A stretch of 64,000 bases of DNA from NCBI GenBank assembly GCA_036004685.1, contig DASYRE010000023.1, positions 4,305 to 68,304 of the forward strand, in the 5' to 3' direction. This DNA is from Candidatus Polarisedimenticolia bacterium (GTDB lineage: Bacteria > Acidobacteriota > Polarisedimenticolia > Gp22-AA2 > AA152). The notes beneath the pieces are model-generated. The model was not told the DNA's origin, searched no databases, and saw only the letters and a list, made by a program, of their open reading frames with translations. Of this stretch, positions 33,905 through 48,903 are shown one piece after another. The stretch's first letter is position 1. The number at the start of each line of letters is the position of its first letter. The position numbers were made by a program, and so were the translations under genes.

Positions 33905-36088
33905 ATGAAAGAGCCGCGCGTGAACGAATGCATCCTCAATTCGGGACTCCTGGACGCGGACGGATTGGCGCGAGTCCTGGAAATCAAGGCCCGGGACGGA
34001 GGCTCCCTGGCGCGGATCGCGGCGAACCTTGGGCTCGCCGAGGAGGAGTCCGTCAGCCGGGCGATCGCAACCGGCCTTGGTCTCGAATACAAGGACCTGA
34101 CCGAAGCGTCTTCCCAGCCACCCTCCGAAGTCACGCTGCCGGCGGAATTCTGTGTCAAGCGCCTGGTCGTGCCGCTGGGACTGAAGGATGGAACGCTGCA
34201 GGTGGCGATGGCGGATCCTCTCGATCATTCCACCATTCAGGACGTGGAATTCCGGACCAGCAAGTGGGTGGCCGTGGTGATGGCGACCGAAAGCGCGATC
34301 CTCAGGGTGCTCAAGGCCTCGTCGCTCCAGCCGGTCGAGTCCACCGCCATGTCGTACGACATGCTCGCGAGCGTGAATCCCGATGGGGAGGTCGAGGTCT
34401 CGCAGGAGGATCAGTGCGAGGTGATCGATCCAACCCAGCTGGCGAAGGACGTGAAGCTTCCGCCGATCGTCCGGTTGGTGAACGTCGCCCTGACCAACGC
34501 GGCGAAGGCAGGGGCGAGCGACATCCACATCGAGCCGCACGAGCACGGCCTGTTGATCCGACACCGCATCGACGGGATTCTGCAGGACGTGCTGCAGATT
34601 CCCAAGCACCTCCAGCAGCCGGTGATTTCCCGGATCAAGATCATTTCCGGGATGGACATCGCCGAGCGCCGCAAGCCGCAGGACGGCCGAAGCCGCCTGA
34701 GGGTCGACAAGCGACGAATCGATCTCCGCGTCTCCTCCCTCCCCACCAGCCACGGCGAGAAAATCGTCGTCCGCTTTCTCGACAGCGCCAACGCCAGCGT
34801 CAGCATGGATGGAATCGGATTCGCTCCCGATCTACGCCGGCGATTCGAGGAGATGCTGACGCGGCCCCAGGGCATGATCCTGGTCACGGGGCCGACCGGA
34901 AGCGGCAAGACGACGACCCTCTATGCCGCGTTGAACCGGGTGAAATCGCACGCCAAGAACATCATCACCGTCGAGGATCCCATCGAGTACCAGCTTGCGG
35001 GAATCAGCCAGGTGCAGATCAATCCGAAGGCGGGGGTCACCTTCGCGAGCGGACTGCGTTCCATCTTGCGCCAGGACCCGGACATCGTGTTGCTCGGCGA
35101 GATCCGTGATCGCGAAACTGCCCAAATCGCGCTCGAGGCCGCGCAGACGGGGCACCTGCTCCTGAGCACGATGCACACGAACGACGCTCCCTCCTCGATC
35201 ACGCGGCTCCTCGATCTGGGGATCGAGCCGTTCATGATCGCCGCGTCCCTGATCGGCATTCTGGCCCAGCGCCTGGTGCGCAAACCCTGCCCCGATTGCA
35301 TCATCGCGCGCGCGCCCTCGCCCGAGATCCTGGAGAAGTTCACCGTCACGAGGCCGGATCCCTCCTACAAAGCAGGACAGGGTTGCCCGAACTGCGGACA
35401 GACCGGCTTCCGGGGCCGCACCGCGATCCACGAGTTCCTGGTGATCAACGACGAGCTCCGTGATCGCATCGCCCGCGGGGCCGCAGAGCACGAGACGAGG
35501 GCCGCGGCGCGGCGCGCTGGGATGCGGACGCTGATGGAGGACGGGGTGATGAAGGCCGGGGACGGGCTCACGACGCTCGAGGAAGTCCTCCGAGTGATCC
35601 CCCCCGACGAGGTAAAGGCGACGACGACCTCCCAGGCCGCTCCGAGGACGGGACCCGCGATCGACGACTCCTCGACCACTCTGCCCGAGGGCGAGAAAGT
35701 GAGGGTCCTGGTAGTCGAGGACAGCCCCACGGTGGTCACGGTGGTCAAGTATTTCCTGGAGAACGAAGGGTTCGAGGTGCTGGTCGCCGCCAACGGAGTC
35801 GAAGGCTTGCGGATCGCGAGAGACTCGGCTCCACACGTCGTCGTCAGCGACCTCAACATGCCGGAGATGGACGGTATCGCGCTGGTGCAGGAGCTGCGCG
35901 CCGACGCCCGTACCCGGGGCGCGGGAATCATCTTGCTCACTTCCGACGACAGCGTGGAAACCGAAGCTCGTGGGCTGGCGACCGGCGCCGACGATTACCT
36001 GGCCAAACCGGTCGAGCCGAAGCGGCTGGCCGCGCGGATTAAGACAATCTTAGCCCGAAATCGGACCCGCCAAGCGGAGAAGGTGTGA
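33905..36088 (+). CDS. GspE/PilB-type secretion ATPase (T2SS/T4P family) with C-terminal response-regulator receiver domain
   Basis: 727 aa. N-terminal T2SSE_N-like domain. Walker A VTGPTGSGKTTT, Asp box, Walker B LLGEIRD, His box. Tetracysteine CPDC…CPNC. Then canonical REC: VLVVEDSPT…, phospho-acceptor VVVSDLNMPEMDG, LLTS, AKP. Stop overlaps next gene start (ATGA). Confidence 0.85.
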   Translation: MKEPRVNECILNSGLLDADGLARVLEIKARDGGSLARIAANLGLAEEESVSRAIATGLGLEYKDLTEASSQPPSEVTLPAEFCVKRLVVPLGLKDGTLQVAMADPLDHSTIQDVEFRTSKWVAVVMATESAILRVLKASSLQPVESTAMSYDMLASVNPDGEVEVSQEDQCEVIDPTQLAKDVKLPPIVRLVNVALTNAAKAGASDIHIEPHEHGLLIRHRIDGILQDVLQIPKHLQQPVISRIKIISGMDIAERRKPQDGRSRLRVDKRRIDLRVSSLPTSHGEKIVVRFLDSANASVSMDGIGFAPDLRRRFEEMLTRPQGMILVTGPTGSGKTTTLYAALNRVKSHAKNIITVEDPIEYQLAGISQVQINPKAGVTFASGLRSILRQDPDIVLLGEIRDRETAQIALEAAQTGHLLLSTMHTNDAPSSITRLLDLGIEPFMIAASLIGILAQRLVRKPCPDCIIARAPSPEILEKFTVTRPDPSYKAGQGCPNCGQTGFRGRTAIHEFLVINDELRDRIARGAAEHETRAAARRAGMRTLMEDGVMKAGDGLTTLEEVLRVIPPDEVKATTTSQAAPRTGPAIDDSSTTLPEGEKVRVLVVEDSPTVVTVVKYFLENEGFEVLVAANGVEGLRIARDSAPHVVVSDLNMPEMDGIALVQELRADARTRGAGIILLTSDDSVETEARGLATGADDYLAKPVEPKRLAARIKTILARNRTRQAEKV

Positions 36089-36735
36089 GAAGCGAGGTCC
36101 CTTCAACAGAAACGGCCGCTCGTGGCCATCGATGGATTCACCTCCTGGCGATCGCCGTCTGGCTGGGAACCATCGTCTGGGGCATGGGGATCTTGCTGAG
36201 ATTCGCCTCGACGCCCGGCGATCCGGGTCATCCGCCGCTGCAATGGCCGGAAGGGAGCCGGATCCCAGCCGCGCACCGCCCGGCCTTGCTGATGGCCATT
36301 CATCCCCGCTGTCCCTGCACCCGCGCCAGCATCGAAGAGCTCCAGCAGGTGATGGCCAGGTGCCGCGGGCAAATGGAGGTGCACTTGATCGTCGTGGTGC
36401 CTTCGGCCGTCAGCGTGAGTTGGCTTGACACGGAGCTCGAACGGGAGGCGACCGCGATTCCGGGCGTCAACACCTACATCGATCGGGGCGGTATCGAAGC
36501 GCGCCGATTCGGCACCGCCACGTCGGGGCACACGCTCGTGTACAACGCCAGCGGGCACCTGGCGTTCAGCGGCGGGATCACACTGGCGCGCGGGCATGCA
36601 GGCGACAACTCGGGTCAGGACGCCGTCGTGGAGGCCATCCGCGAGGGAGGGCCGGCCCACGCCACCCACTCCGTCTACGGTTGTCCTCTTCACGATCCCC
36701 CGCCCGGCGCTCGGGCTTCGGAGTCCTACCGATGA
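36085..36735 (+). CDS. Membrane-anchored thioredoxin-fold (TlpA/ResA-like) protein with atypical C-P-C motif
   Basis: 216 aa. One N-terminal TM ([22 protein letters not shown]). [22 protein letters not shown] resembles WCxxC region of TlpA-like redoxins but with CxC. Later YGCPLH. ATGA overlaps at both ends couple it to flanking genes. Confidence 0.55.
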
Positions 36736-39700
36736 GCGAGGCGGCGGGCGTCTCCATGACGGAGGCTTCGATGACGAGAGCCTCGGTGTTGTTCCAGGAG
36801 CACCAAGGCCGAATCCTCCGTCGCACCGATCGCATCTTCGCGGGTCTCCTCGCCTTCGAGTGGCTCGCGGGCATCATCGCCGCCCTGTTCATCTCGCCTC
36901 GAACCTGGGCGGGGCAATTCAGTAAGCCCCACATCCATGTCTGGGCAGCGGTGTTCCTGGGCGGAGCCATCGTCGTTTTCCCGATCGTGCTCGCCCTCTG
37001 GCAGTCGGGCCGTCCCTTCACGCGGCACACCATCGGCGTCGGCCAGATGCTTTTCGGGGCCCTCCTAATCCATCTCACCGGCGGCCGTATCGAAACGCAC
37101 TTCTTCGTGTTCGGCTCCCTGGCCTTCCTGGCCTTCTACCGGGATTGGCGGGTCATTCTCTCGGCGACCCTGGTGGTCGTCGTCGACCACTTCGCCCGAG
37201 GACTGCTTTGGCCTCAATCGGTCTATGGTGTGCTCGTCGCCAGCCCCTGGCGGACGATCGAGCACGCGGGCTGGGTGGTTTTCGAGGACATCTTTCTCAT
37301 CGCTTCCTGCGCGCAAGGAGTGGAGGAAATGCGGCAGATCGCCGAGCGCCAGGCGCGCCTCGAGACCGTCAACGACGAAATCGAGCGTCAGGTGGAAGAC
37401 CGAACCGCCGCGCTCCGGACGAGCGAGGAGCGCTTCCGTTTGCTGGCCGAGTGCTCCCCCGTAGGGATCTACCAAACGGACGCCGCCGGACACCGCGTCT
37501 ACGTGAACGCCCGGTGGGCGGAAATCGCCGGGCTGGCCTTGTCGGAGGGACTGGGCGACGGGTGGCTCGGAGCATTGCATCCGGAGGATCGCGGCCGCGT
37601 GCTCTCGGAATGGAAAGCCTGCAGCGCCGCCGGGAGAGACATCAATCACGAATTTCGCCTGCAGCGCAGCTCCGGAGAGATTCGCTGGGTCCACTCCTTC
37701 GCCTCCCCGGTGCGCACCTCCTCCGGAGAGGCCACCGAGTACGTGGGCATCGTCGAGGACATTACGCGCCGCAAGGAAATCGAGGGCGAGCTGGAACGCG
37801 CCAAGGAAGAGGCCGAAGCGGCCGCCCGGATGAAGTCCGAATTCCTCGCCAACATGAGCCACGAGATCCGCACCCCGATGAATGCGGTGATCGGCATGAC
37901 CGGGCTGCTGCTGAGCACCGACCTGACGAAGGAGCAGCTGGAGTACGCCGAGACGGTCCGGCGTTCGGGAGAAGCCCTGCTGACCATCATCAATGACATC
38001 CTCGACTTCTCCAAGATCGAGGCGGGACGGCTCCATCTCGAGGTGATCGACTTCGATCTTCCGGTGCTCGTCGAAGAAGTGGTCTCCCTGCTCGCCGAGC
38101 GCGCCCAGGCGAAGAACCTCGAGCTGGTCTGCGTCGTGCATCACGGGGTTCCCTCGGCGCTGCGCGGAGACCCCGGGCGATTGCGCCAGATTCTCTTGAA
38201 CCTGGTGGGAAACGCCGTCAAGTTCACGGCTCAAGGCGAGGTCGTCCTGAGGGTCAAGTCGCTGGATCCGGATACCGATCCCTGTCCGGTCCGATTCGAG
38301 GTCTCGGACACCGGCATCGGCATGCCCGCCGAAGTGATCGATGGGCTCTTCCGGCCTTTTTCGCAGGCCGACAGCTCGACCGCGCGCAAATTTGGAGGCA
38401 CCGGTTTGGGGCTGGCCATATCCCGGCAGCTCACCGACCTGATGGGAGGCGCAATCGGCGTCGAGAGCCAGCCAGGCAAGGGAAGCACGTTCTGCGTGAC
38501 CTTGCGCCTGGAGAGGCAGCCGGAAGGGGCCGGTATCCTCCCGGCGCCTCGGGACAGCCTGCGCGGGCTACGAATCCTGAATGTCGATGACAACCGGTCG
38601 AATCGCCAGCTTCTTTCCGTCCTGGCTGGTTCGTGGGGCATGAACTCCGACGAGGCCGAGAGTGGCCCCGCGGCGTTGGATCTTGCGCTCGCCGCGGCTC
38701 TCGAAGGCCGCCCGTACGACGTGGTGGTCCTCGACATGCAGATGCCCGGCATGAACGGCCTCGAACTCGCCCGCAAGCTCAAAGCCGATCCGCGCACCGC
38801 CGCGCTTCGTCTCGTGATGCTGACCTCCGTCGGTCTCCGAGGCCAAGGCGAGGCTTCCCGGGCGGCCGGCATCTCCGGTTATCTGACCAAGCCGGTACGG
38901 CAGTCGCAGCTCTACGACTGCCTGGCGACGGTGATGAGCTCGAGCCTGATCAGGGGAGCAGGGGGCAAAGCCTCCATGCCGCTGGTCACGCGTCACAGCC
39001 TGCGAGAGGCGAAGGCGCGCCGGCAAAAACGGATTCTCGTCGCGGACGACAACGAAACGAACCAGCTCGTGGCGGTCCGCATGCTGGGCAAGCTCGGCTT
39101 CCAGGCGGACGTGACGGCCAACGGGCTGGAGGCCGTGGAGGCTCTCACGCGAATTCCGTACGGGCTCGTGCTGATGGACTGCCAGATGCCGGAGATGGAT
39201 GGCTATGCCGCGACGCGCGCCATCCGCCAGGCGGAAGAGTCCAAAGGAATTCACACTCCCATCATTGCCATGACCGCCCACGCGATGCAGGGGGACCGGG
39301 AGAAGTGCCTGGAAGCCGGCATGGACGACTACCTGGCCAAGCCCGTCCGCTCCGAGGAGCTCGCCAAAACGATCGAGCGATGGCTCCGGCCCGAGGCGGG
39401 GGACGAGGACCGCGAGACGGCGGGCACGACCCAGACCACCAACAAGAAAGTCAAGGCTCGCTCGAAGCGGACGAATGTCCAGAGCTCCCTGCCGCAAGAG
39501 GCTCCGCTGGATGTGGCCATATGGGACGAGCTAAGGGAGGCGGGCACCGCCGATGAGGACGGATTCCTGCGCCTGCTGGTCGGGAAGTTCCTGGAGGAGG
39601 CGCCGGCGTGTCTCGCCGCGCTCTCGGAAGCTTCCGCCGGCGGCGATGCCGCCGCTCTCGGTCGAGCGGCACATCGGTTGAAGGGCGCCGCCGCCACCCT

Positions 39701-39872
39701 CGGCGCGACCCGAATGGCCTCGATGTCGATGGAGCTGGAGAAGCTGGGGCGAGCCGGCTCCGTGACCGGGAGCCAGGGGTGGATCACGCTTCTCGAGGCA
39801 GAGCTGGGCCGCGTCCGCAAAGCCTTGTCCAAGGAGCTGGACGGAGCCGGGACGCAGCGGAAGACGGCCTGA
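36732..39872 (+). CDS. Hybrid sensor histidine kinase: multi-TM sensor / PAS / HisKA / HATPase_c / REC / REC / Hpt
   Basis: 1046 aa. ~6 TM helices with conserved His ([13 protein letters not shown]). PAS ([18 protein letters not shown]…). H-box [13 protein letters not shown]1/G2 boxes ([24 protein letters not shown]). Two REC domains ([13 protein letters not shown]; [13 protein letters not shown]). Hpt with [11 protein letters not shown]. Confidence 0.85.
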
Positions 39873-42800
39873 TGCGGAACGCGGCCGATCGAGAGAGGGT
39901 TTCCCGGGGGGAGTGGCTCGTCGGTGGCGGCGAGATGGCTAAGACGATCAAGGCCAAGGATTGGTCCAAGACTCCTCTGGGTCCCATGGATTCCTGGCCG
40001 CAGAGCCTGCGGACCACCGTCAGCCTCGTGCAGGCCTCCAACTCGCCGATCTCCCTCGCCTGGGGCCCCGGCCACGTCCAGATCTACAACGATGGCTACT
40101 GGCCCATCTGCGGGGCCAAGCATCCTGCGTCGATGGGCCAGGACTTCCGCGAGTGCTGGGCTTCCGCCTTTCCCGTCATCGGGGAAGCCTACGCGACCGC
40201 CTGGTCGGGGAAGAGCGCCTACCTGGAAAAAATGCGGATGTTCCTGGACCGCTATGGCTTTCTGGAGGAGACGTGGTTCACGTTCTCGTTCAGCCCTATC
40301 ACGGACGAATCGGGCTCGGTCGGCGGCCTCTTTCATCCGGTTACCGAGATGACCAGCCAGATGCTTACGGAGCGACGCACCAAGACGCTTCGTGAGCTCG
40401 CCAGCCGCGGGGCCCGGGCCCGGACCACGGAAGAGGCGTTCGCGCTGTCGGCTCAGGTGCTTGCCGAATCCGACCTGGATTTGCCGTTCGTCTTGTTCTA
40501 TCTGGTGGAGTGGGACTCACGCCGCGCCCGGCTCATCGGCCAGACAGGACTGGAGCCTGGAACCGACGTGAGCCCGAAGCTCATCGATCTGCGCTCGCCG
40601 GTCAATCGTCCCTGGCCCGTGGAGGAGGTGACGCGCACGGGACTGCCGTGCCGGATCGACTCCACGGGGACGCTGCTCGCTGGCCGGCCAGTCGGTCCTT
40701 ACCCTGAGATTCCGAAATCGGCGTTCGCCCTGCCCATTCGCCAGCCGGGCACCGACCAGCCCGCCGCCGTCATGGTGGCGGGCGTCAGCTCGCGGCTGCC
40801 CATGAACGAGCCCTACCGCGGCTTCTACGACCTGATCGGCGCGGCCGTGGGTACGGCCTTGGCCAATGCGCGGGCCTACGAGGTGGAGCGCAAGAGAGCC
40901 GAGGCGCTGGCCGAAATTGATCGGGCGAAGACGGCGTTCTTTTCCAACGTGAGTCACGAATTCCGTACGCCGATCACGCTGATCCTGGCCCCGCTCGAGG
41001 ACGAGCTCGCCGAACGCCGGGACCCCTTGCCGGCCGGGCGCCGCGAACGGCTGGAGACGGCGCACCGCAACAGTCTCCGGCTCCTGAAGCTGGTGAACAC
41101 CCTGCTGGATTTCTCGCGCATCGAAGCGGGGCGGATTCAGGCCACGTACGAGCCGACGCATCTGGGAGAGGAGACGGCGGAGCTTGCCAGCGCGTTTCGC
41201 TCGGCGGTGGAAAGAGCCGGACTGCAGCTCACGGTCGATTGCCCTCCCTTGCCCGAGCCCGTCTACGTGGACCGGCAGATGTGGGAGAAGATCGTCCTGA
41301 ATCTCGTCTCGAACGCTTTCAAACACACCTTCCAGGGCGGCATCGAGATCAAGCTGCGGTGGCGCGAGAATGGCGCGGAGCTTTCCGTCCACGATACCGG
41401 AGTGGGCATTGCAACGGAGGAGCTGCCGCGGATCTTCGAGCGCTTTCATCGCGTCAAGGGAGCCCAGTCACGGTCGCACGAAGGGACCGGGATCGGCCTG
41501 GCGCTCGTGAAGGAGCTGGTTCTACAGCACGGGGGAGAAGTCCGAGTCGAGAGCCAGGAGGGCAAAGGCAGCGTCTTCACGGTCGCCATCAAGGCGGGGC
41601 GCGCTCACCTTCCGGCGGAGCGCCTGCAGACCGATCCCAGGCCCGCCTCCCCGGGGACCGGGGCGGCCGCCTACGTCGAGGAAGCTCTGCATTGGCTGCC
41701 CGGCGCGCCGGCCGAGATTGCCATGCCATCCGCCGGAGCGAGGCCGGGCGCCGCTCCCGGCCAATCCGCGGCGGCCGCTTCCCAGCACCGATCGAGCGTT
41801 CTCTGGGCCGACGACAACACCGACATGCGTGAATACGTCCGGCGGCTGCTGTCGCAGGATTACGACGTGATCGCGGTCGCCGACGGCGTCTCGGCGCTCG
41901 AGATGGCGAAGAAACAACGACCCGACATCGTTCTGACGGACGTCATGATGCCGCGGCTGGACGGATTCGGCCTTCTCCGGGAGCTGCGAGCCGATCCCTC
42001 GATGCGGACCGTTCCGGTCATCCTTCTCTCGGCGCGCGCCGGGGAGGAGGCGACTCTCGAAGGCCTCCAATCGGGCGCCGACGATTATCTCGTCAAGCCC
42101 TTCTCCGCTCGCGAGCTTCAGGCCCGGGTGCGGACGCACCTCGACATGAGCCGCGCCCGCCTCGAATGGGCCAGGCGCCTGGAGCAGGCGAACCAAGAGC
42201 TGGAGGCCTTCAGCTATTCCATATCGCACGATCTGCGAACGCCGCTACGTCACATCCAGGGATTCGTCGAGCTGCTCCGGGAAGAGGCCGCTTCGGCTCT
42301 CGACGAGAACGGGAGTCGATATCTGGGCAAGATCGACGCTTCCGCGAAGAGCATGGCGAAGATGATCGAGGACCTGCTTGCGTTTTCGCACATGGGCCGC
42401 CGCGAGATGCGCGATACCAGGGTGGATATGGGCCGCCTGGTCTCCGAAGTGAAGAGCGAGCTTCAGGAGGAGGCGAGAGGACGCCGGATCGTGTGGAACA
42501 TCGGACCCATGCCGGAGGTCCGGGGAGATGCGGCGCTGCTCAAGCTGGCCGTGACCAATTTGCTCGCCAACGCGATGAAGTACACGCAGAATTGTGAGGA
42601 AGCCCGCATCGAGATCGCCTCGGAGGCTCCCCGGAACGAAGTCGTGATCTCCGTGCGGGACAACGGCGTCGGCTTCGATCCGCGGTACGCCCATAGGCTG
42701 TTCGGCGTCTTCCAGCGGCTTCACGAAACGAAGGAATTCGAAGGCACCGGGATCGGTCTGGCGAACGTGCGGCGGATCGTCAGCCGGCACGGTGGAAGGA

Positions 42801-42922
42801 CGTGGGCCCACGGAGAGGTCGGCCGGGGCGCCGCGTTCTTCTTTTCACTTCCCAAGGCGTGGGACGAGGAGGAAGGACCCGCGGCCGCGGACCGGCTCTC
42901 CGAAGACCTGGCAGGAGCATGA
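39872..42922 (+). CDS. Cytoplasmic dual-core sensor kinase: PAS-like / GAF / HisKA-HATPase / REC / second HisKA-HATPase
   Basis: ATG overlaps upstream TGA (TGATG). First kinase core SHEFRTPITLI…HDTGVGI…GTGIGLALV. REC with IVLTDVMMPRLDG. Second core ISHDLRTPLRHI…DNGVGF…GTGIGLANV. Start could alternatively be MAKTIK at ~39937. Confidence 0.8.
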   Translation: MRNAADRERVSRGEWLVGGGEMAKTIKAKDWSKTPLGPMDSWPQSLRTTVSLVQASNSPISLAWGPGHVQIYNDGYWPICGAKHPASMGQDFRECWASAFPVIGEAYATAWSGKSAYLEKMRMFLDRYGFLEETWFTFSFSPITDESGSVGGLFHPVTEMTSQMLTERRTKTLRELASRGARARTTEEAFALSAQVLAESDLDLPFVLFYLVEWDSRRARLIGQTGLEPGTDVSPKLIDLRSPVNRPWPVEEVTRTGLPCRIDSTGTLLAGRPVGPYPEIPKSAFALPIRQPGTDQPAAVMVAGVSSRLPMNEPYRGFYDLIGAAVGTALANARAYEVERKRAEALAEIDRAKTAFFSNVSHEFRTPITLILAPLEDELAERRDPLPAGRRERLETAHRNSLRLLKLVNTLLDFSRIEAGRIQATYEPTHLGEETAELASAFRSAVERAGLQLTVDCPPLPEPVYVDRQMWEKIVLNLVSNAFKHTFQGGIEIKLRWRENGAELSVHDTGVGIATEELPRIFERFHRVKGAQSRSHEGTGIGLALVKELVLQHGGEVRVESQEGKGSVFTVAIKAGRAHLPAERLQTDPRPASPGTGAAAYVEEALHWLPGAPAEIAMPSAGARPGAAPGQSAAAASQHRSSVLWADDNTDMREYVRRLLSQDYDVIAVADGVSALEMAKKQRPDIVLTDVMMPRLDGFGLLRELRADPSMRTVPVILLSARAGEEATLEGLQSGADDYLVKPFSARELQARVRTHLDMSRARLEWARRLEQANQELEAFSYSISHDLRTPLRHIQGFVELLREEAASALDENGSRYLGKIDASAKSMAKMIEDLLAFSHMGRREMRDTRVDMGRLVSEVKSELQEEARGRRIVWNIGPMPEVRGDAALLKLAVTNLLANAMKYTQNCEEARIEIASEAPRNEVVISVRDNGVGFDPRYAHRLFGVFQRLHETKEFEGTGIGLANVRRIVSRHGGRTWAHGEVGRGAAFFFSLPKAWDEEEGPAAADRLSEDLAGA

Positions 42923-45588
42923 GTCACCCGGCGGAAGCGAGCCGACCCGAAAGACTGCTGCGGATTCTTCACCTGGAGGACGATCCGAATGACGCGGAGC
43001 TGATCCGGAAGGCTCTGCCGAAAGCGGGGCAGGGCCTCTTGGTCGAGCAGGTGTCGACACGAAGCGAGTTCGCGCGGCTCCTCGGCCGGGGAGCAGTCGA
43101 CCTAATCCTCTCGGATTTCGCGCTGCCCGACTTCGACGGTCTTTCCGCCCTCAAGCTGGCGCGCGAAAGGTTCCCGGACGTTCCCTTCATCCTCGTGTCG
43201 GGAACGATCGGTGAGGAAGCCGCCATCGAAAGTCTGCGTAGTGGCGCGACGGACTACGTTCTGAAGCACCGGCTGTCCCGCCTGGGGCCTGCGGTCTCCC
43301 GCGCCCTCGAAGAAGCTGCGGAGCGCAGAAAGCGCGTCGACGCGGAAGAAGCGCTGCATCGGGAACAGCGATTGTCGCGCTTGGAGGAGGCCCGGCGCCG
43401 CCGGAGCGAGGAGCGGCTTGCGGCGCAGTTCGACATGGCTCTTGCTCTGGCCAAGTCGACCTCCCTGGCCGAAGCGACGCCGCGCATTTTGAAGTCGGTC
43501 TGCGAGGTACTCGAGTGTGAATATGCGGCGCTCTGGGAGGTGGACCGCCAGGCCAAAGTTCTGCGCTGCGTGGAGATCTGGCACCCCGCGCGGATCGGCT
43601 TCCCCCAGTTTGAGGAGCTGAGCCGACGGACGACCTTTGCTCCCGGCGTCGGGCTGCCCGGAAGGGTCTGGGCCAGCGGCAAGCCGGCTTGGATCCAGGA
43701 CGTCGTGGAAGACGCCAACTTCCCGCGGGCCCCGGCGGCGAGGCGCGAAGGGCTGCATGGGGCCTATGGCCTGCCCATCGTGCTGCAGGGGGAAGTCCTG
43801 GGCGTTATGGAGTTTTTCAGCCGGGAGATCCGGGAGCCGAGCAGCGATCTGGTCGCGATGCTCACTACGGTGGGAAGTCAGATCGTCCAGTTCATCGAAG
43901 GGAAGCACCGCGAACAGGAGCTGGTGGAACGGGTGCGTCTGACCGCCCTTGGCGCGGACATCGGCATGTCCCTGACCCAGCCCGGCACCCTGCGCGACCG
44001 GTTGCAGCGCTGCGCCGCGGCCGTCGTGAAACACCTCGACGCGGCCTTCGCGCGCATCTGGACGCTCGACCAAGCCGGCCAAGTCCTGGAGCTCCAAGCC
44101 AGCGCGGGCCTCTACACGCACCTGGATGGCGCCCACAGCCGGGTGCCCGTGGGGAAGTACAAGATCGGCCTCATCGCCGAAGAGCGCCAGGCCCACTTGA
44201 CGAACGACGTCCTCAATGACCCCCGAGTCGGGGATAGAGAATGGGCGGCGCGCGAGGGGATGGCCGCGTTCGCCGGTCATCCTCTCATCGCGCGGGATCA
44301 TCTGGTCGGAGTGATGGCTCTATTCGCGCGGCACCCCTTGAGCGACTACGTCTTGACGGCCCTGGCGACCATCGCCGACAACGTCGCGCTGGGTATCGAA
44401 AGCGAGAAAATCGAGGCGGAACGCGAGAAGCTGGAGATCCAGTTCCGGCAGGCCCAGAAGATGGAAGCCGTGGGGCGTCTCGCCGGCGGAGTCGCCCACG
44501 ACTTCAACAACCTGCTGAGTGTCATTCTCGGCTATGGCAACCTCATGCTGGCGCGATCGGAGCGCAGCGAAGGAGATCGCAAGAGCCTACAGGAAATGTG
44601 CAAGGCCGCCGAGCGCGCCGCAGGCTTGACGCGCCAGCTTCTCGCCTTCAGCCGCCAGCAGGTTCTGATCCCGGAGATCTTCGATGTTCGCGAGACCGTC
44701 AAGGAACTGTCGAAAATGCTGGGCCGGCTGATCGGCGAGGACGTCGAGCTGCAGACGCATTGTTGCGAGGAGCCCTGCCACGTATTGGCCGATCGTGGGC
44801 AGGTGGAGCAAGTCATCATGAACCTCGTGGTGAACTCGCGCGATGCCATGCCTCAGGGAGGAAAGCTGTGCGTCGAAGTCCGGAGCGTCGGAGTGGCTGC
44901 GCCGATTCCGCACGATCACGTGACCATGCCGGCAGGACGCTACGTGATGCTGGAAGTCATCGATACCGGAACCGGCATGGATTCCGCCACCCAAAACCGC
45001 GTTTTCGAGCCGTTCTTCACGACCAAGGAGCAGGGAAAGGGGACCGGCCTGGGACTCGCGACGGTGTACGGAATCGTCAAGCAGAGCAATGGCTACATCT
45101 GGGTGCACAGCGAGCCTGGCAAGGGAACGAAGTTCACAATCTATCTGCCGCTTTCCCAAGGGCAGGCGAAGGAGGCGATTCCCGTGCCGCGCGGCGCGCT
45201 CCTGCGCGGAACCGGCACGATCCTCCTGGTGGAAGATTCCGAAGCTCTGCGCCGTCTGGCCCGGCACGTGCTCGAGGATACCGGCTACACGGTTCTGGCC
45301 GCCTCCAGCGGCGAAGAAGCGGAACGTCTGGCAGCCGGCCATTCCGGCCGGATCGATCTGCTTCTCGTCGATGTCGTCATGCCTGGAATGAACGGCCGAG
45401 AACTGGCGGAGCGCTTGTCATCGTTGCGCTCCGAGATGCAGATCCTCTACATGTCGGGCTACACGAACGACGCGGTCTTGCAGCACGGGATCGCGTCGGA
45501 GGCGGTGAACTTCATCCAGAAACCGTTCACTCCGAGCGTCATGACGCGCAAAGTGCGCGAAATTCTGAAGCAGAATCCCTCCTTCTGA
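42919..45588 (+). CDS. Hybrid sensor kinase: REC / coiled coil / GAF / GAF / HisKA / HATPase_c / REC
   Basis: ATGA overlap with upstream gene. N-terminal REC ([13 protein letters not shown]), two GAF-like regions, H-box [13 protein letters not shown]-boxes ([15 protein letters not shown]), C-terminal REC ([13 protein letters not shown]). Confidence 0.85.
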
Positions 45589-45738
45589 AGTCATTCCCCG
45601 CCTTCTCCGGAGCGAAAAGTGTCGGAGCCCCGCTCTTTGCGCATCTCCGAAGAGACGGGGCATCGTCCTCGGACGAGGCCGTTGGCAAGGATATAATCCC
45701 CCAGGCGTTGGGCATCCGGAGCGCACAGGGGACATCGA

Positions 45739-46788
45739 ATGAACCGCAAGGCCATCATTTTCATCGCATTGGCCGTCATCGCGGGCTCCGCGGTCCTCTA
45801 TTTCTGGTTCGCTTCGCGGCCCCGGACGATGGTCTTGACCGGGTTGGTGACCACGAACGACGTCATCGTCAGCTCGCAGATCGCCGGTCAGATCGACAAG
45901 CTCCTGGTCACCGAAGGCAACGTCGTGAAGCACGGAGACCTGCTCGTGGTGATCAAGCCGGACGAGCTGCAGGCCGACGCCGCCTACTACGCTCACAGCG
46001 CCGAGGGAGTCGCGGAGCAGGTGAAGGAGGGCGAGGCGGCGCTGCGGTATCAGCAGCGGCAGACCACCGATCAGATCAAGCAGGCGGAGGCTGTCGTTTC
46101 CTCCGTGGAGGCCCAGCGCGCCGCCGCCGAGGCGGACGCTGAGAACGCCCGGCTGATCTTCGAGCGCAGCGAAGGCCTGAAGAGCCAGGGTATCCTTTCC
46201 CAGGGTGAGTACGACCAGGCGCGCACAACCTACGCTGCGGCCCAGGCCAAAGTGGACTCGTTCCGGAAGCAGGCGGACGCCCAACGGGCCACCCTGGCGC
46301 TGGCCCGGGCGAACGCCGAACAGAACGCCGTCAGATTGCACCAGCTCGATTCGAGCCGCCAGGAGCAGGCGGCGGCCGCCGCGCAGCGGACGAAGGCCGA
46401 CGTTCGGCTCGCCTACACCGAGCTGCGGGCCCCCATCGGCGGCTTGGTGGACGTGCGCGCCGTCCGCGCCGGCGAAGTGGTCGCCGCGGGCCAGCCGCTC
46501 CTGACTCTCATCAATCCGGACGATCTGTGGGTGCGCGCGGACGTAGAGGAGACTTATGTGGACCACGTGCGGCTCGGGGACCGTCTGACCGTGCGGCTCC
46601 CTTCGGGCAAGGAGCGCCCGGGGGTTGTCTTCTATCGCGCGGCCGACGCCGCGTTCGCCACGCAGCGCGACGTGAGCCGCTCCAAGCGGGACATCAAGAC
46701 CTTCGAGATCCGCCTGCGCGTCGACAACCGGGACCGGGGCCTCGCCGTCGGCATGACGGCCTACGTGATCCTCCCGCCGATTTCCTGA
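45739..46788 (+). CDS. HlyD-family periplasmic adaptor (membrane fusion protein)
   Basis: N-terminal TM (AIIFIALAVIAGSAVLYFWF), biotinyl-lipoyl-like hairpin, long coiled coil (Q/A/E-rich), beta-barrel C-terminus. Stop overlaps ATPase start (TGATG). Confidence 0.8.
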   Translation: MNRKAIIFIALAVIAGSAVLYFWFASRPRTMVLTGLVTTNDVIVSSQIAGQIDKLLVTEGNVVKHGDLLVVIKPDELQADAAYYAHSAEGVAEQVKEGEAALRYQQRQTTDQIKQAEAVVSSVEAQRAAAEADAENARLIFERSEGLKSQGILSQGEYDQARTTYAAAQAKVDSFRKQADAQRATLALARANAEQNAVRLHQLDSSRQEQAAAAAQRTKADVRLAYTELRAPIGGLVDVRAVRAGEVVAAGQPLLTLINPDDLWVRADVEETYVDHVRLGDRLTVRLPSGKERPGVVFYRAADAAFATQRDVSRSKRDIKTFEIRLRVDNRDRGLAVGMTAYVILPPIS

Positions 46789-47777
46789 TGGCCGCCATCG
46801 ACGTCCGTCAGATCGTGAAGAAGTTCGACGACTTCACCGCCGTCAGCGGCGTCAGCTTCACGGTCGAGCGCGGGGAAATCTTCGGCCTCCTGGGCCCCAA
46901 CGGCGCGGGAAAATCGACGCTCATCCGGATGCTCACGACCCTGATCGTGCCGACTTCCGGCACCGCGACCGTCAACGAGTTCGACATCCGGACCCAGCAA
47001 AACGGCGTCCGGCAGTCGATCGGCGTGATCCCCCAGGCGATGACCAGCGATCTCGAGCTGAGCGTCGAGGAGAACCTGATCATCTACGCGAAGCTCTACG
47101 GCGTGACACGCGAGCGCCGTAAGAAGCTGACGCGCGAGCTGCTCGAGTCGGTGGAGCTGACGCAGTGGGCCGACAAGCCGGTCAAGAACCTTTCCGGCGG
47201 GATGCGCCGCCGCGTGGAGATCGCCCGCGGCCTCGTCCACGAGCCCAAGATCTTCTTCCTTGACGAGCCGACGACCGGGCTCGACCCGGTGTCGCGCGTC
47301 GCCGTCTGGGAGATGCTCCAGCGCATCAAGGGGCAGCGCGACCTCACGGTTCTGCTGACGACCCATTACATGGATGAGGCCGACAAGCTGTGCGATCGGA
47401 TCGCCATCGTCGACCACGGCGAACTGAAGGCTCTCGATTCCCCGGCGAAGCTGAAGGCCTCCGTCCCCGGACAGAACTTCGTGGAGGCCAGCTTCTCGAC
47501 GGTGCCGGAGGGCTGGCCCGAAGTCCTGAAGGGGCTTCCAGCCGTCCAGAGCGTGACCGGCAAGGACAGGATCTACCGGATCTCGTCGGGCGACGGTCCC
47601 GAGACCACGATGGCGCTGATGGACGCCGCCCGGAAGTCCGGGGTCGACGTGGAGTCGCTCTCCGTGCAGAGCACGACCCTGGACGACGTGTTCGTCCATT
47701 ACACGGGGCGGGGGCTCCGGGACGCCCTGCAGGAGGCCTCCCCGATGGACAGCCCGTTCATGATGCGGCGCGGGTAG
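46788..47777 (+). CDS. ABC transporter ATP-binding protein
   Basis: Walker A GPNGAGKST, Q-loop, signature LSGGMRRRV, Walker B IFFLDEPTTGLD, H-loop. Start from ATG overlapping HlyD stop. The long ORF 46527.. upstream portion rejected. Confidence 0.9.
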   Translation: MAAIDVRQIVKKFDDFTAVSGVSFTVERGEIFGLLGPNGAGKSTLIRMLTTLIVPTSGTATVNEFDIRTQQNGVRQSIGVIPQAMTSDLELSVEENLIIYAKLYGVTRERRKKLTRELLESVELTQWADKPVKNLSGGMRRRVEIARGLVHEPKIFFLDEPTTGLDPVSRVAVWEMLQRIKGQRDLTVLLTTHYMDEADKLCDRIAIVDHGELKALDSPAKLKASVPGQNFVEASFSTVPEGWPEVLKGLPAVQSVTGKDRIYRISSGDGPETTMALMDAARKSGVDVESLSVQSTTLDDVFVHYTGRGLRDALQEASPMDSPFMMRRG

Positions 47778-47787
47778 GAGCGGGACG

Positions 47788-48903
47788 ATGCAGCGGATGT
47801 GGGCGATCATCGAGCGCGAGCTGCGGCGTTTCCGCAGGAGCCCGGCGCTGATCTTCATCTCCCTCGTCTTCCCGCTCGTCCAGCTCGTCGTGCTGGGATA
47901 TGCGTTCGGCGGCGTCGTAAAGCACCTCAAGATCGGAATCGTCGATCAGGATCACGGCCTCTCCGCGGTGAAGGTCCGCGAGCTCTGCAACGCCGCCGCG
48001 AGCGGCGCGAAGACCTTCGATCCCGTCCTCTACGCCGATCCGGGCGTGGCGCTGCGGGATCTCAAGAACGGAAAGATCAACGGCATCCTGACGATCCCGC
48101 CCGATTTCTCGCGGCGGACGCTGCAGAAGGCGGGATCCCGCCTCGCCTTGATCGAGGACAACACCGACGGGTTCGCCTCCTCCGCGCTGGCCGCGTCGGT
48201 CGGCGGGCTGGTGGGCGCCCTGAACCTGCCGGCTCAGGACGCGCGGCGGGTGCCGACCCAGGTGAGTCTGGATGTCGTTGAGGTGTATCCCTACGTCCCG
48301 TACATCCAGTACCTGCTTCCGGGGACGGTCGTCATGTCGATCTTCATGATGGTGATGATCGGCGGGGGGATCATCTTCATCGACGACAAGGCGCGCGGCC
48401 TGCACGAAGGCTACCTGGTCACCCCGATCTCCAAGCTCGAGCTCATCGGCGGCTTCAATCTCTCCGGGACGATCAAGGCGGTGGCGGCGGGCACGGTCCT
48501 GGCACTGCTCGGCTCGTGGATCGCCGGGATCCCCGATCCGCTCCAACCCTGGCGCCTCGTCAAAGTGTTCCTCGTGATCGTCGTCACCGCGTTCGCCCTC
48601 ATCAGTCTCATGTTCCTGCTGATGGTGCGCGTGACCGATCCCCTCGTTCCCCGCGCTGTCTTCGGAGTCCTGAATACCCTGCTCTTCTTCCCGAGCGGCG
48701 CCGTCTACCCCCAGCAGGCGTTTCCTCCCTGGCTCAAAGGGATCGCCACGATCGATCCCTTCACGTACGCCGTCCACGCGCTCAAGAGCCTGCTCCTGAA
48801 GAACACCGGCTTCGACGCCATCGGCTGGGACCTCGTCTACCTCTCGATCTTCTCCATCATCGCCATGACCGCCGCCACCATGCTCTTCCGAAGGACGCTC
48901 TGA
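47788..48903 (+). CDS. ABC-2 type transporter permease
   Basis: 371 aa. N-terminal TM, large extracytoplasmic loop, 5 further TM helices. ABC-2 family topology. 10 nt after ATPase gene. Confidence 0.8.
   Translation: MQRMWAIIERELRRFRRSPALIFISLVFPLVQLVVLGYAFGGVVKHLKIGIVDQDHGLSAVKVRELCNAAASGAKTFDPVLYADPGVALRDLKNGKINGILTIPPDFSRRTLQKAGSRLALIEDNTDGFASSALAASVGGLVGALNLPAQDARRVPTQVSLDVVEVYPYVPYIQYLLPGTVVMSIFMMVMIGGGIIFIDDKARGLHEGYLVTPISKLELIGGFNLSGTIKAVAAGTVLALLGSWIAGIPDPLQPWRLVKVFLVIVVTAFALISLMFLLMVRVTDPLVPRAVFGVLNTLLFFPSGAVYPQQAFPPWLKGIATIDPFTYAVHALKSLLLKNTGFDAIGWDLVYLSIFSIIAMTAATMLFRRTL

What the first reader, a model, noticed from the sequence alone, without database searches (positions are those of the whole stretch)
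39872..42922. Single polypeptide with two complete histidine-kinase cores separated by a receiver (PAS-GAF-HK-REC-HK)
Seen: two independent H-box/G-box sets in one ORF (SHEFRTPITLI…GTGIGLALV and, after a canonical REC, ISHDLRTPLRHI…GTGIGLANV). The second H-box resembles the phytochrome-type/HWE-adjacent HisKA variant. HK-REC-HK arrangements are uncommon. This suggests an internal relay or a kinase/phosphatase pair acting on the embedded REC, and makes the locus a branched rather than linear phosphorelay.
Basis: seen in the sequence. Interest (0 to 1): 0.55.

Follow-up and report, generated by a model that had tools for sequence, protein, structure and literature searches.

The report
Two-kinase sensor protein, LvrA-like architecture
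One 1016-residue bacterial sensor protein really does carry two complete histidine-kinase engines with a receiver domain between them, but this layout has been published (Leptospira LvrA) and is the commonest form of a large, widespread protein family, so it is a sound but ordinary finding.

Summary
Window 39872-42922 (+) is one uninterrupted 1016-aa gene: PAS-like, GAF, DHp1/CA1 (His362), a flexible linker, REC (Asp690), a continuous signalling helix, and DHp2/CA2 (His786). Both kinase cores and the receiver keep every catalytic residue I checked. His362, His786 and the G1/G2 glycines are invariant in 151 distinct full-length relatives, and the other checked residues differ in at most 3.

The claim that this layout is uncommon or novel is not supported. 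Leptospira LvrA has the same PAS-DHp-CA-REC-DHp-CA layout (published 2018). The REC-DHp-CA half matches LvrB, the structurally solved prototype of Rec-controlled kinases. The PAS-GAF sensor module has about 7,000 50%-identity cluster representatives, and half of the best 149 carry CA-REC-CA. Relatives occur in more than ten phyla.

In relatives, the slot after the REC holds other effector modules (GGDEF-EAL, or PAS plus another kinase). The REC-to-His786 linker varies in steps of seven residues. The most likely mechanism is therefore a serial relay: the sensor controls HK1, HK1 phosphorylates the embedded REC, the REC activates HK2, and HK2 phosphorylates a receiver encoded just downstream. 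Here that is the N-terminal REC of the translationally coupled REC-GAF-GAF-HK-REC gene. Branching is possible but not shown.

Verdict: new member of a known kind, low interest.

The parts
39872..42922 (+). Whole gene, 1016 aa: PAS-GAF-DHp1-CA1-REC-DHp2-CA2
   Evidence: Continuous ORF. Identical to public protein P0001 and to the public gene call. Colinear with 151 distinct full-length relatives.
39926..40351 (+). N-terminal PAS-like sensor domain (aa ~19-160). Has invariant C80, H84 and C95. Ligand unknown.
40352..40807 (+). GAF domain (aa ~161-312)
40808..41131 (+). Signalling helix plus DHp1 (aa 313-420). Phospho-accepting His362 lies at nt 40955-40957; the H-box is SHEFRTP.
   Evidence: Pfam HisKA 352-420. 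Continuous helix 313-379 in the AF2 model. The GAF-to-His362 spacing is fixed at 54 aa in 151/151 relatives. His362 is invariant.
41279..41596 (+). CA1 ATP-binding domain (aa 470-575) with N, G1, F and G2 boxes
   Evidence: Pfam HATPase_c, 102 bits. Box positions. Box residues conserved in 149-151 of 151 relatives; the G1/G2 glycines are invariant.
41597..41797 (+). Flexible CA1-REC tether (aa 576-642)
   Evidence: Lowest conservation in the protein, 0.37. Variable length, mostly 58-72 aa. pLDDT below 50 for aa 612-637.
41798..42133 (+). Receiver domain (aa 643-754). Phospho-accepting Asp690 lies at nt 41939-41941.
   Evidence: Pfam Response_reg, 98 bits. D647 (148/151), D648, D690 (150/151), S720 and K742 are invariant or nearly invariant.
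42134..42394 (+). Alpha-S signalling helix plus DHp2 (aa 755-841). Phospho-accepting His786 lies at nt 42227-42229; the H-box SHDLRTPLRHI is phytochrome-type.
   Evidence: Continuous helix 746-805. The K742-to-H786 linker is 44 aa in 128/151 relatives, with variants of 51 and 58 aa. Pfam HisKA 778-841. His786 is invariant.
42524..42856 (+). CA2 ATP-binding domain (aa 885-995) with N, G1, F and G2 boxes
   Evidence: Pfam HATPase_c, 88 bits. Boxes conserved in 150-151 of 151 relatives. Best PDB match is the RpBphP2 kinase domain 8f71.
42919..45588 (+). Downstream gene REC-GAF-GAF-HisKA-HATPase-REC (889 aa). Its ATG overlaps the target's TGA (ATGA). Its N-terminal REC is the inferred substrate of HK2.
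   Evidence: The same kind of REC-first kinase gene follows or flanks relatives.
36732..39872 (+). Upstream gene PAS-HisKA-HATPase-REC-REC-Hpt (1046 aa). Its stop overlaps the target's start.
33905..36088 (+). First gene of the co-directional cluster: MshEN-T2SSE (PilB-like) ATPase with a C-terminal REC. Possible output of the relay.
   Evidence: Of the other RECs in the window, its REC is the most similar to the target's REC (36% identity, 69.6 bits).

Best explanation
The protein is a hybrid histidine kinase fused to a Rec-controlled histidine kinase, and it works as an intramolecular two-tier kinase cascade.

Proposed steps:
1. A cytoplasmic PAS-GAF sensor (ligand unknown) controls autophosphorylation of core 1 on His362 through a rigid helix.
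2. The phosphoryl group passes to Asp690 of the embedded receiver, which hangs on a flexible tether of about 65 residues.
3. Phosphorylated REC domains drive the alpha-5/alpha-S helices of the dimer into a coiled coil. This releases CA2 and switches on autophosphorylation of core 2 on His786, the mechanism solved for LvrB.
4. Core 2 then phosphorylates a receiver encoded immediately downstream. In this window that is the N-terminal REC of the translationally coupled REC-GAF-GAF-HK-REC protein, which adds a third kinase tier.

What is shown: the domain anatomy, the intact catalytic residues, the helix continuity in a model, the heptad-stepped linker, the modular replacement of core 2 in relatives, and the gene neighbourhood. 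What is inferred: every phosphotransfer step, its direction, and the identity of the signal.
For: - Anatomy and motifs.
- Every catalytic residue checked in both cores and the REC is invariant or nearly so in 151 distinct full-length relatives.
- The conserved unit is PAS-GAF-HK1-REC, present in all 80 genome loci examined. The slot after the REC is variable. It is mostly DHp-CA, but in relatives it is GAF-GGDEF-EAL, PAS-GGDEF-EAL, PAS-HisKA_3-HATPase or PAS-HisKA-HATPase-REC. This is the pattern of a receiver controlling an effector module.
- The REC-to-His786 linker is 44 aa in 128/151 relatives, with variants of 51 aa (5) and 58 aa (3). That is +7 and +14, as expected for a coiled-coil signalling helix. 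A heptad preference is reported for Rec-HKs in PMC13269768.
- The AF2 model shows one continuous helix over aa 746-805, from REC alpha-5 into DHp2. The CA1-REC tether is disordered over aa 612-637.
- The C-terminal half aligns colinearly with LvrB (8vc9, E 4e-20 by sequence, about 1e-20 by Foldseek).
- LvrA has the same layout, and it was shown in vitro to phosphorylate LvrB (PMC5863495).
- Downstream partners: 15 of 34 closely linked co-directional downstream genes in relatives encode a REC. Of these, 11 are single-domain phytochrome-type (Rcp-like) regulators, most of them (9 of 11) with a 0-3 nt gap.
- The three closest metagenomic relatives that I looked up are followed or flanked by a single-domain RR and/or a REC-(PAS)-HK-REC gene.
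- In the window the next gene starts with a REC and overlaps the target's stop by ATGA.
Against: - No phosphotransfer was or could be tested here.
- The operon holds six RECs, four kinase cores and an Hpt. Cross-talk into Asp690 from the upstream Hpt or kinase, or out of His362 to other RECs, cannot be excluded.
- The PilB-like ATPase REC is the closest of the other RECs in the window to the embedded REC (36% identity), which would fit a branch.
- The window's wider neighbourhood is not conserved next to relatives, so partner assignment rests on gene class, not on orthology.
- The AF2 model is a monomer, so coiled-coil formation is inferred from linker statistics and from the LvrB analogy.
- I did not align the LvrB alpha-S sequence residue by residue, and its conserved pivot glutamate was not checked.
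Confidence: 0.6

Rival explanations
1. Signal-integrating or branched node. The embedded REC is mainly phosphorylated in trans, by the upstream PAS-HK-REC-REC-Hpt protein or another kinase. Core 1 also, or instead, serves other receivers such as the REC of the PilB-like ATPase. The protein then merges or splits phosphate flows instead of passing one signal down a line.
For: - Five co-directional genes (three with overlapping stop/start codons, the first two separated by a gap) carry four kinase cores, six RECs and one Hpt.
- The ATPase REC is the window REC most similar to the embedded REC (69.6 bits, 36% identity).
- LvrA was proposed to feed both its own REC and LvrB in a branched scheme (PMC5863495).
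- Relatives often sit among extra Hpt and RR genes.
Against: - The PAS-GAF-HK1-REC cassette is inherited as a unit in all 80 loci examined, whereas the window's neighbours are not conserved next to relatives. This argues that the cognate pair is internal.
- A tethered REC has a very high local concentration, which in hybrid kinases generally favours internal transfer (general knowledge, not tested here).
Confidence: 0.27
2. Kinase/phosphatase pair. One core phosphorylates the embedded REC and the other mainly dephosphorylates it (or a shared external regulator), setting a steady-state level instead of relaying phosphate onward.
For: - Core 1 carries the full H-E-x-x-T phosphatase motif, invariant in 151/151 relatives.
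- The window's core 2 also has H-D-x-x-T.
- HisKA kinases are commonly bifunctional (general knowledge).
Against: - In 112 of 151 relatives the +4 residue of H-box 2 is Ala, not T/N, so phosphatase activity of core 2 is not a conserved family trait.
- The REC is fixed to DHp2 through a continuous heptad-stepped helix. This is the regulatory geometry seen in LvrB, not a substrate-docking geometry.
- Relatives replace core 2 with GGDEF-EAL modules, which cannot dephosphorylate a REC.
- The ATP-binding boxes of core 2 are conserved in 150-151 of 151 relatives. A pure phosphatase would not need this.
Confidence: 0.08
3. Artefact or degenerate case. The ORF is really two genes joined by an assembly or frameshift error, or one core is an inactive pseudo-kinase.
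For: Nothing beyond the prior that very long multi-domain ORFs in MAG contigs are sometimes chimeric.
Against: - At least 151 distinct colinear full-length relatives exist, from many independent assemblies and isolate genomes (Nostoc, Calothrix, Ideonella, Allorhodopirellula), all with intact motifs.
- The independent public gene call is identical.
Confidence: 0.01

Closest known systems
LvrA (LIC11709) of pathogenic Leptospira: a hybrid histidine kinase fused to a hybrid response regulator (Adhikarla et al. 2018, PMC5863495)
   Same: - Same domain order after the sensor: DHp-CA-REC-DHp-CA in one cytoplasmic polypeptide, with two H-box histidines (218, 616) and one receiver Asp (524).
- It is the best NCBIfam hit, NF047465, at 498 bits. 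Two stretches matched; the best one covers aa 634-995 against the C-terminal REC-DHp-CA part of the profile.
- It is followed in an operon by a REC-first kinase (LvrB), as the target is here.
   Different: - Not an orthologue: the score of 498 is far below the model's cut-off of 1200.
- LvrA has a single PAS sensor, whereas the target has a distinct, highly conserved PAS-GAF module.
- Asp-to-His2 spacing is 92 aa in LvrA and 96 aa here.
- LvrA is restricted to pathogenic Leptospira, whereas this family spans more than ten phyla.
LvrB and the Rec-controlled histidine kinases (Rec-HK, 'hybrid response regulators'; also PhcR and CheS3). Cryo-EM mechanism in PMC13269768; PDB 8vc9
   Same: - The C-terminal 370 residues are a REC-alphaS-DHp-CA unit colinear with LvrB.
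- A continuous helix runs from REC alpha-5 into DHp alpha-1.
- Linker variants differ by multiples of seven residues.
   Different: - Here the Rec-HK unit is not a separate protein. It is fused behind its presumed activating kinase.
- The core is phytochrome-type by sequence. LvrB is a weaker match (E 4e-20) than RpBphP2 (E 6.5e-41).
- The conserved pivot Glu and the 3-residue heptad stutter described for LvrB were not checked.
Bacteriophytochrome histidine-kinase modules (RpBphP2 8f71, DrBphP 8avv, SaBphP2 8uph) with their single-domain Rcp-type regulators
   Same: - Core 2 has the NxELExF...SHDLRxPLR H-box region, and its best solved matches are bacteriophytochrome kinase domains.
- In 11 relatives the gene is followed by a single-domain regulator of about 150 aa that I judge from memory to be of the type paired with phytochromes.
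   Different: - There is no bilin-binding PAS-GAF-PHY photosensory core in front of core 2. Its input is a receiver domain.
Conventional hybrid histidine kinases (ArcB, BarA, TorS, RcsC, ShkA)
   Same: The first two-thirds of the protein (sensor-DHp-CA-tether-REC) is a standard hybrid kinase with an SHEFRTP H-box. It gives strong partial NCBIfam hits to TorS, BarA and ArcB, and ShkA (6qrj) is a fold match.
   Different: Those proteins continue with Hpt or further REC domains and use His-Asp-His-Asp transfer. Here the REC is followed by a second ATP-dependent kinase core, so the signal is re-generated from ATP instead of being passed on.

Membership tests
HisKA-type histidine kinase, core 1 | DHp domain with a phospho-accepting His in an H-box | tested here: met
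   PF00512 at aa 352-420, 59 bits. His362 in SHEFRTP is invariant in 151/151 relatives.
HisKA-type histidine kinase, core 1 | GHKL ATP-binding domain with N, G1, F and G2 boxes | tested here: met
   PF02518 at aa 470-575, 102 bits. N481 in 150/151, D508/G510/G512 in 151/151, F522 in 149/151, G538/G540/G542 in 151/151.
HisKA-type histidine kinase, core 2 | DHp domain with a phospho-accepting His in an H-box | tested here: met
   PF00512 at aa 778-841, 59 bits. His786 in SHDLRTP is invariant in 151/151 relatives.
HisKA-type histidine kinase, core 2 | GHKL ATP-binding domain with N, G1, F and G2 boxes | tested here: met
   PF02518 at aa 885-995, 88 bits. N900, D930/G932/G934 and G958/G960/G962 in 151/151; F944 in 150/151.
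Either kinase core | ATP-dependent autophosphorylation activity | not testable with these tools
   Needs purified protein and radiolabelled ATP or Phos-tag assays.
Receiver (REC) domain | Acidic pocket DD, phospho-accepting Asp, conserved S/T and Lys | tested here: met
   PF00072 at aa 643-754, 98 bits. D647/D648, D690, S720 and K742 conserved in 148-151 of 151 relatives.
Rec-controlled histidine kinase (LvrB type) | REC directly followed by DHp-CA with no other domain between | tested here: met
   Domain map. Colinear alignment with LvrB 8vc9: query segment 17-364 against chain residues 10-375.
Rec-controlled histidine kinase (LvrB type) | Continuous alpha-5/alpha-S helix into DHp alpha-1, with heptad-constrained length | tested here: met
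   AF2 helix over aa 746-805. Linker lengths of 44, 51 and 58 aa across the family. Caveat: the model is a monomer, and no coiled-coil predictor was run.
Rec-controlled histidine kinase (LvrB type) | Kinase activity switched on by REC phosphorylation | not testable with these tools
   Requires biochemistry (D690 variants, BeF3-).
LvrA (NCBIfam NF047465 hybrid_HK_LvrA) | Score at or above the curated cut-off of the model (1200 bits) | tested here: not met
   497.9 bits. Same architecture, but not the same orthologous group.
LvrA-type architecture (hybrid HK fused to Rec-HK) | Sensor-DHp-CA-REC-DHp-CA in one polypeptide, with two His and one Asp | tested here: met
   compared with the published LvrA domain map.
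   No such hit at E <= 1 in any of the three segment scans. Both DHp domains are PF00512.
Phytochrome-type kinase module | Closest sequence relatives of the core are bacteriophytochrome kinase domains | tested here: met
   8f71 (RpBphP2 kinase domain) at E 6.5e-41, followed by 8avv, 9ys3 and 8uph.
Phytochrome photoreceptor | Bilin-binding PAS-GAF-PHY photosensory core | tested here: not met

The most novel reading that the evidence does not exclude
The conserved PAS-GAF-HK1-REC cassette has an invariant Cys80/His84/Cys95 cluster in its PAS domain. It could be a widespread, uncharacterised cytoplasmic sensor, for example of redox state or a metal. In this reading its signal is re-amplified from ATP at each step of a three-tier histidine-kinase cascade (HK1 to REC to HK2 to REC-GAF-GAF-HK3 to REC/Hpt). 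That would be a bacterial analogue of a MAPK-style kinase cascade, with an extra sensory input at each tier, and here it might end on a receiver-bearing PilB-like secretion or pilus ATPase.
Probability: 0.2. Interest if true: 0.5.

Novelty: new member of a known kind. Interest (0 to 1): 0.25.

Why it matters
The architecture is already published, so on its own this adds little. The protein is a well-supported member of a large family: about 7,000 50%-identity clusters carry the sensor module. As far as my checks went the family is uncharacterised. The sources give only generic names, the best NCBIfam hit is below its cut-off, and I did not search the literature for this sensor module.

Two points are useful:
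- This family is a natural, abundant example of a Rec-controlled kinase fused to its activating kinase, so it could serve as a single-chain system for studying the mechanism solved for LvrB in 2026.
- Relatives swap kinase, GGDEF-EAL and PAS-kinase modules behind the same PAS-GAF-HK-REC cassette. That shows clearly that the second kinase core is used as a response-regulator output domain.

The signal sensed by the PAS-GAF module and the cellular output remain unknown.

Tried and rejected
1. Two genes or a frameshift. Rejected: the ORF is continuous, the public gene call is identical, and 42 of the 80 best genome loci have a colinear single ORF.
2. Degenerate pseudo-kinase. Rejected: the catalytic residues checked are invariant or nearly so in 151 relatives.
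3. Recent internal duplication of one kinase core. Rejected: the two cores are only 30% identical and belong to different HisKA subtypes (hybrid-kinase type and phytochrome type).
4. Conserved operon context. tblastn of nine window neighbours against 80 relatives' loci found no conserved neighbour. Only gene classes recur downstream: a single-domain RR or a REC-first kinase.
6. A profile search of the N-terminus against PDB sequences gave only a marginal GAF hit (3ci6, E 0.04).
7. A literature search for 'HK-REC-HK' returned nothing, and so did a search for PDB code 8F71. The identity of 8f71 came from the Foldseek table.
8. Foldseek of the full-length monomer model gives low TM-scores because the relative domain placement is arbitrary. 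I used it only for domain-level identification.
9. Two Python runs failed on a parsing bug and carry no information.


Full report
**What is there**

The finding's coordinates coincide with one gene. A stop-free frame runs to the TGA at 42920-42922. The likely start is the ATG at 39872, which overlaps the TGA of the preceding gene by one base (TGATG). The 1016-aa product is identical to a public protein, P0001, named 'ATP-binding protein [Candidatus Polarisedimenticolia bacterium]' (phylum Acidobacteriota). The independent gene call on its 103,939-bp metagenome contig has the same boundaries.

Pfam places the domains as follows:
- HisKA at aa 352-420
- HATPase_c at aa 470-575
- Response_reg at aa 643-754
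- a second HisKA at aa 778-841
- a second HATPase_c at aa 885-995

Core 1 has His362, the REC has Asp690, and core 2 has His786. Both cores have N, G1, F and G2 boxes.

**Are both cores real?**

I aligned 151 distinct full-length relatives: 111 from the protein database and 40 from species-representative genomes.
- His362, His786, the G1 and G2 glycines and the G1 aspartates of both cores, and Asn900 are invariant. Asn481 is conserved in 150/151.
- The F-box phenylalanines are conserved in 149/151 and 150/151.
- In the receiver, Asp690 is conserved in 150/151 and Asp647 in 148/151. Asp648, Ser720 and Lys742 are invariant.

The two cores share only 30% identity, so this is not a recent internal duplication. 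Core 1 is the ordinary hybrid-kinase type (SHEFRTP). The closest solved relatives of core 2 are bacteriophytochrome kinase domains: RpBphP2 (8f71, E 6.5e-41), then 8avv, 9ys3 and 8uph. 'HWE-adjacent' is not supported, because both DHp domains are PF00512 and no HWE_HK or HisKA_2 hit appears.

**Is it unusual?**

No. Leptospira LvrA was described in 2018 with exactly this layout: PAS, DHp, CA, REC, DHp, CA, with His218, Asp524 and His616 (PMC5863495). LvrA is also the best NCBIfam hit (NF047465, 498 bits). That score is far below the 1200-bit cut-off, so the target is not an LvrA orthologue.

The family is large and widespread:
- A scan of one genome per species found 391 relatives.
- The 80 best come from Acidobacteriota, Myxococcota, Planctomycetota, Verrucomicrobiota, Bacteroidota, Cyanobacteria, Beta- and Gammaproteobacteria, Armatimonadota and others.
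- Of those 80, 42 are sensor-DHp-CA-REC-DHp-CA in a single ORF and 15 more add a terminal REC.
- A profile of the PAS-GAF module finds 7,002 50%-identity cluster representatives at E <= 1e-30.
- Among the best 149 of these, 75 carry CA-REC-(DHp)-CA.

The double-kinase layout is thus the commonest form of a large family.

**How it most likely works**

Four comparative observations point to a serial internal relay.

1. The unit PAS-GAF-HK1-REC is present in all 80 loci, while the segment after the REC varies. It is mostly DHp-CA, but in relatives it is GAF-GGDEF-EAL, PAS-GGDEF-EAL, PAS-HisKA_3-HATPase or PAS-HisKA-HATPase-REC. A receiver followed by interchangeable effector modules is the signature of a response regulator. 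Core 2 is therefore the output domain of an internal response regulator.

2. The spacing from the receiver Lys742 to His786 is 44 residues in 128 of 151 relatives. The commonest alternatives are 51 aa (5 relatives) and 58 aa (3 relatives), which are one and two heptads longer. The CA1-REC tether is poorly conserved and mostly 58-72 residues long. The GAF-to-His362 spacing is fixed at 54 residues in all 151.

3. The full-length AF2 model (pLDDT 80.7) shows one continuous helix from REC alpha-5 into DHp2 (aa 746-805) and another from the GAF into DHp1 (aa 313-379). The tether is disordered over aa 612-637.

4. The C-terminal half is colinear with LvrB (8vc9). The 2026 cryo-EM study of LvrB showed that REC phosphorylation drives alpha-S coiled-coil formation and releases the CA domain. 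It also reported a heptad preference for the linker in Rec-controlled kinases (PMC13269768).

The inferred mechanism follows. The sensor controls His362 autophosphorylation. The phosphoryl group goes to the tethered Asp690. The phosphorylated REC switches on core 2, which autophosphorylates His786 from a fresh ATP. None of these transfers has been measured.

**What lies downstream**

In the window the next gene (42919-45588) overlaps the target's stop codon (ATGA). It begins with a receiver domain, followed by GAF-GAF-HisKA-HATPase-REC.

In relatives, 15 of 34 tightly linked co-directional downstream genes encode a receiver. Eleven are single-domain regulators of about 150 residues, which I judge from memory to be phytochrome-type (Rcp-like); most (9 of 11) have a 0-3 nt gap. 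The three closest metagenomic relatives that I looked up show these arrangements:
- target, then a single-domain RR, then REC-PAS-HK-REC
- target, then REC-HK-REC, then Hpt, then RR
- REC-PAS-HK-REC, then target, then a single-domain RR

The specific neighbours of the window are not conserved elsewhere. The inference that core 2 phosphorylates the REC encoded just downstream therefore rests on a recurring gene class and on translational coupling.

The window cluster as a whole is five co-directional genes. The last three kinase genes have overlapping stop and start codons, and the first two genes are separated by a gap:
- MshEN-T2SSE ATPase with a C-terminal REC
- a 183-aa protein of unknown function
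- PAS-HK-REC-REC-Hpt
- the target
- REC-GAF-GAF-HK-REC

Together they hold four kinase cores, six receivers and one Hpt. Cross-talk or branching is plausible, but nothing here demonstrates it.

**Rivals**

- **Branched or integrating node (0.27).** It is favoured by the crowded operon and by the ATPase REC being the window's closest relative of the embedded REC (36% identity). It is disfavoured by the inheritance of HK1-REC as a unit.
- **Kinase/phosphatase pair acting on the embedded REC (0.08).** It fits poorly. The T/N of the E/DxxT/N phosphatase motif is Ala in H-box 2 of 112 of 151 relatives. The ATP-binding boxes of core 2 are conserved in 150-151 of 151. The REC is attached to DHp2 in a regulatory geometry, not a substrate geometry. 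Relatives replace core 2 with non-kinase outputs. The role of the E/DxxT/N motif is from my own knowledge of the HisKA literature.
- **Artefact or pseudo-kinase.** These readings are refuted.

**Verdict**

The layout is already known (LvrA, and Rec-controlled kinases generally) and is common in this family. I rate it a new member of a known kind with interest 0.25. The residual novelty lies in the uncharacterised, highly conserved PAS-GAF sensor (invariant Cys80, His84, Cys95) and in the possibility of a three-tier kinase cascade in this operon.

Noticed in passing
window 33905-36088 (+): A type II/IV secretion (PilB-like) ATPase with an N-terminal MshEN domain and a C-terminal receiver domain opens the signalling gene cluster. 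Of the other receivers in the window, its REC is the most similar to the target's REC (36% identity, 69.6 bits). A receiver fused to a secretion or pilus ATPase suggests that the relay may control a pilus- or secretion-type motor directly.
   Followed up: partly
window 36184-36735 (+): A 183-aa gene lies between the ATPase-REC gene and the PAS-HK-REC-REC-Hpt gene, and its end overlaps the start of the latter by 4 nt. It has no Pfam hit and no relative in the 80 related loci.
   Followed up: partly
window 39926-40351 (+), protein residues 80, 84, 95: The N-terminal PAS-like domain is the best-conserved non-catalytic part of the family (motif YNDGYWPICGxKHPxxMGQDFxECW). Cys80, His84 and Cys95 are invariant in 73 aligned relatives. 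This suggests a metal, cofactor or redox-sensing site, but the ligand is unknown.
   Followed up: no
L030 4638-11006 (Archangium sp. MAG); also protein P0121 (2017 aa): The whole PAS-GAF-HK-REC-HK architecture occurs twice in tandem within one 2123-aa ORF in L030, giving four kinase cores in one polypeptide. P0121 carries the PAS-GAF module at its residues 1032-1361 with two matched stretches, which may be the same arrangement.
   Followed up: no
L039 3155-7399, L056 57-4001, L059 7536-11336 (related loci): Close relatives keep the same PAS-GAF-HK-REC cassette but carry GAF-GGDEF-EAL, PAS-GGDEF-EAL or PAS-HisKA_3-HATPase after the receiver. The same sensor therefore feeds c-di-GMP turnover in some lineages and a second kinase in others.
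   Followed up: yes
L002 10976-11428, L006 12436-12888 and nine other related loci: In Acidobacteriaceae and some other relatives, a single-domain response regulator of about 150 aa (phytochrome-type, Rcp-like, judged from memory) follows the gene directly, usually with a 0-3 nt gap. The window lacks it and has a REC-first kinase gene in that position.
   Followed up: yes
window 44241-46142 (+): A 633-aa ORF in another frame overlaps the REC-GAF-GAF-HK-REC gene. It has no Pfam hit and is absent from the public gene calls. It is most likely a spurious long ORF typical of 65% G+C DNA.
   Followed up: partly
window 45739-48903 (+) and 49126-52482 (-): Directly after the signalling cluster come a membrane-fusion protein (HlyD/RND-adaptor type), an ABC ATPase and an ABC-2 permease. 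On the opposite strand there is a CarboxypepD_reg/TonB-dependent-receptor-like outer-membrane barrel. No link to the kinases was tested.
   Followed up: no
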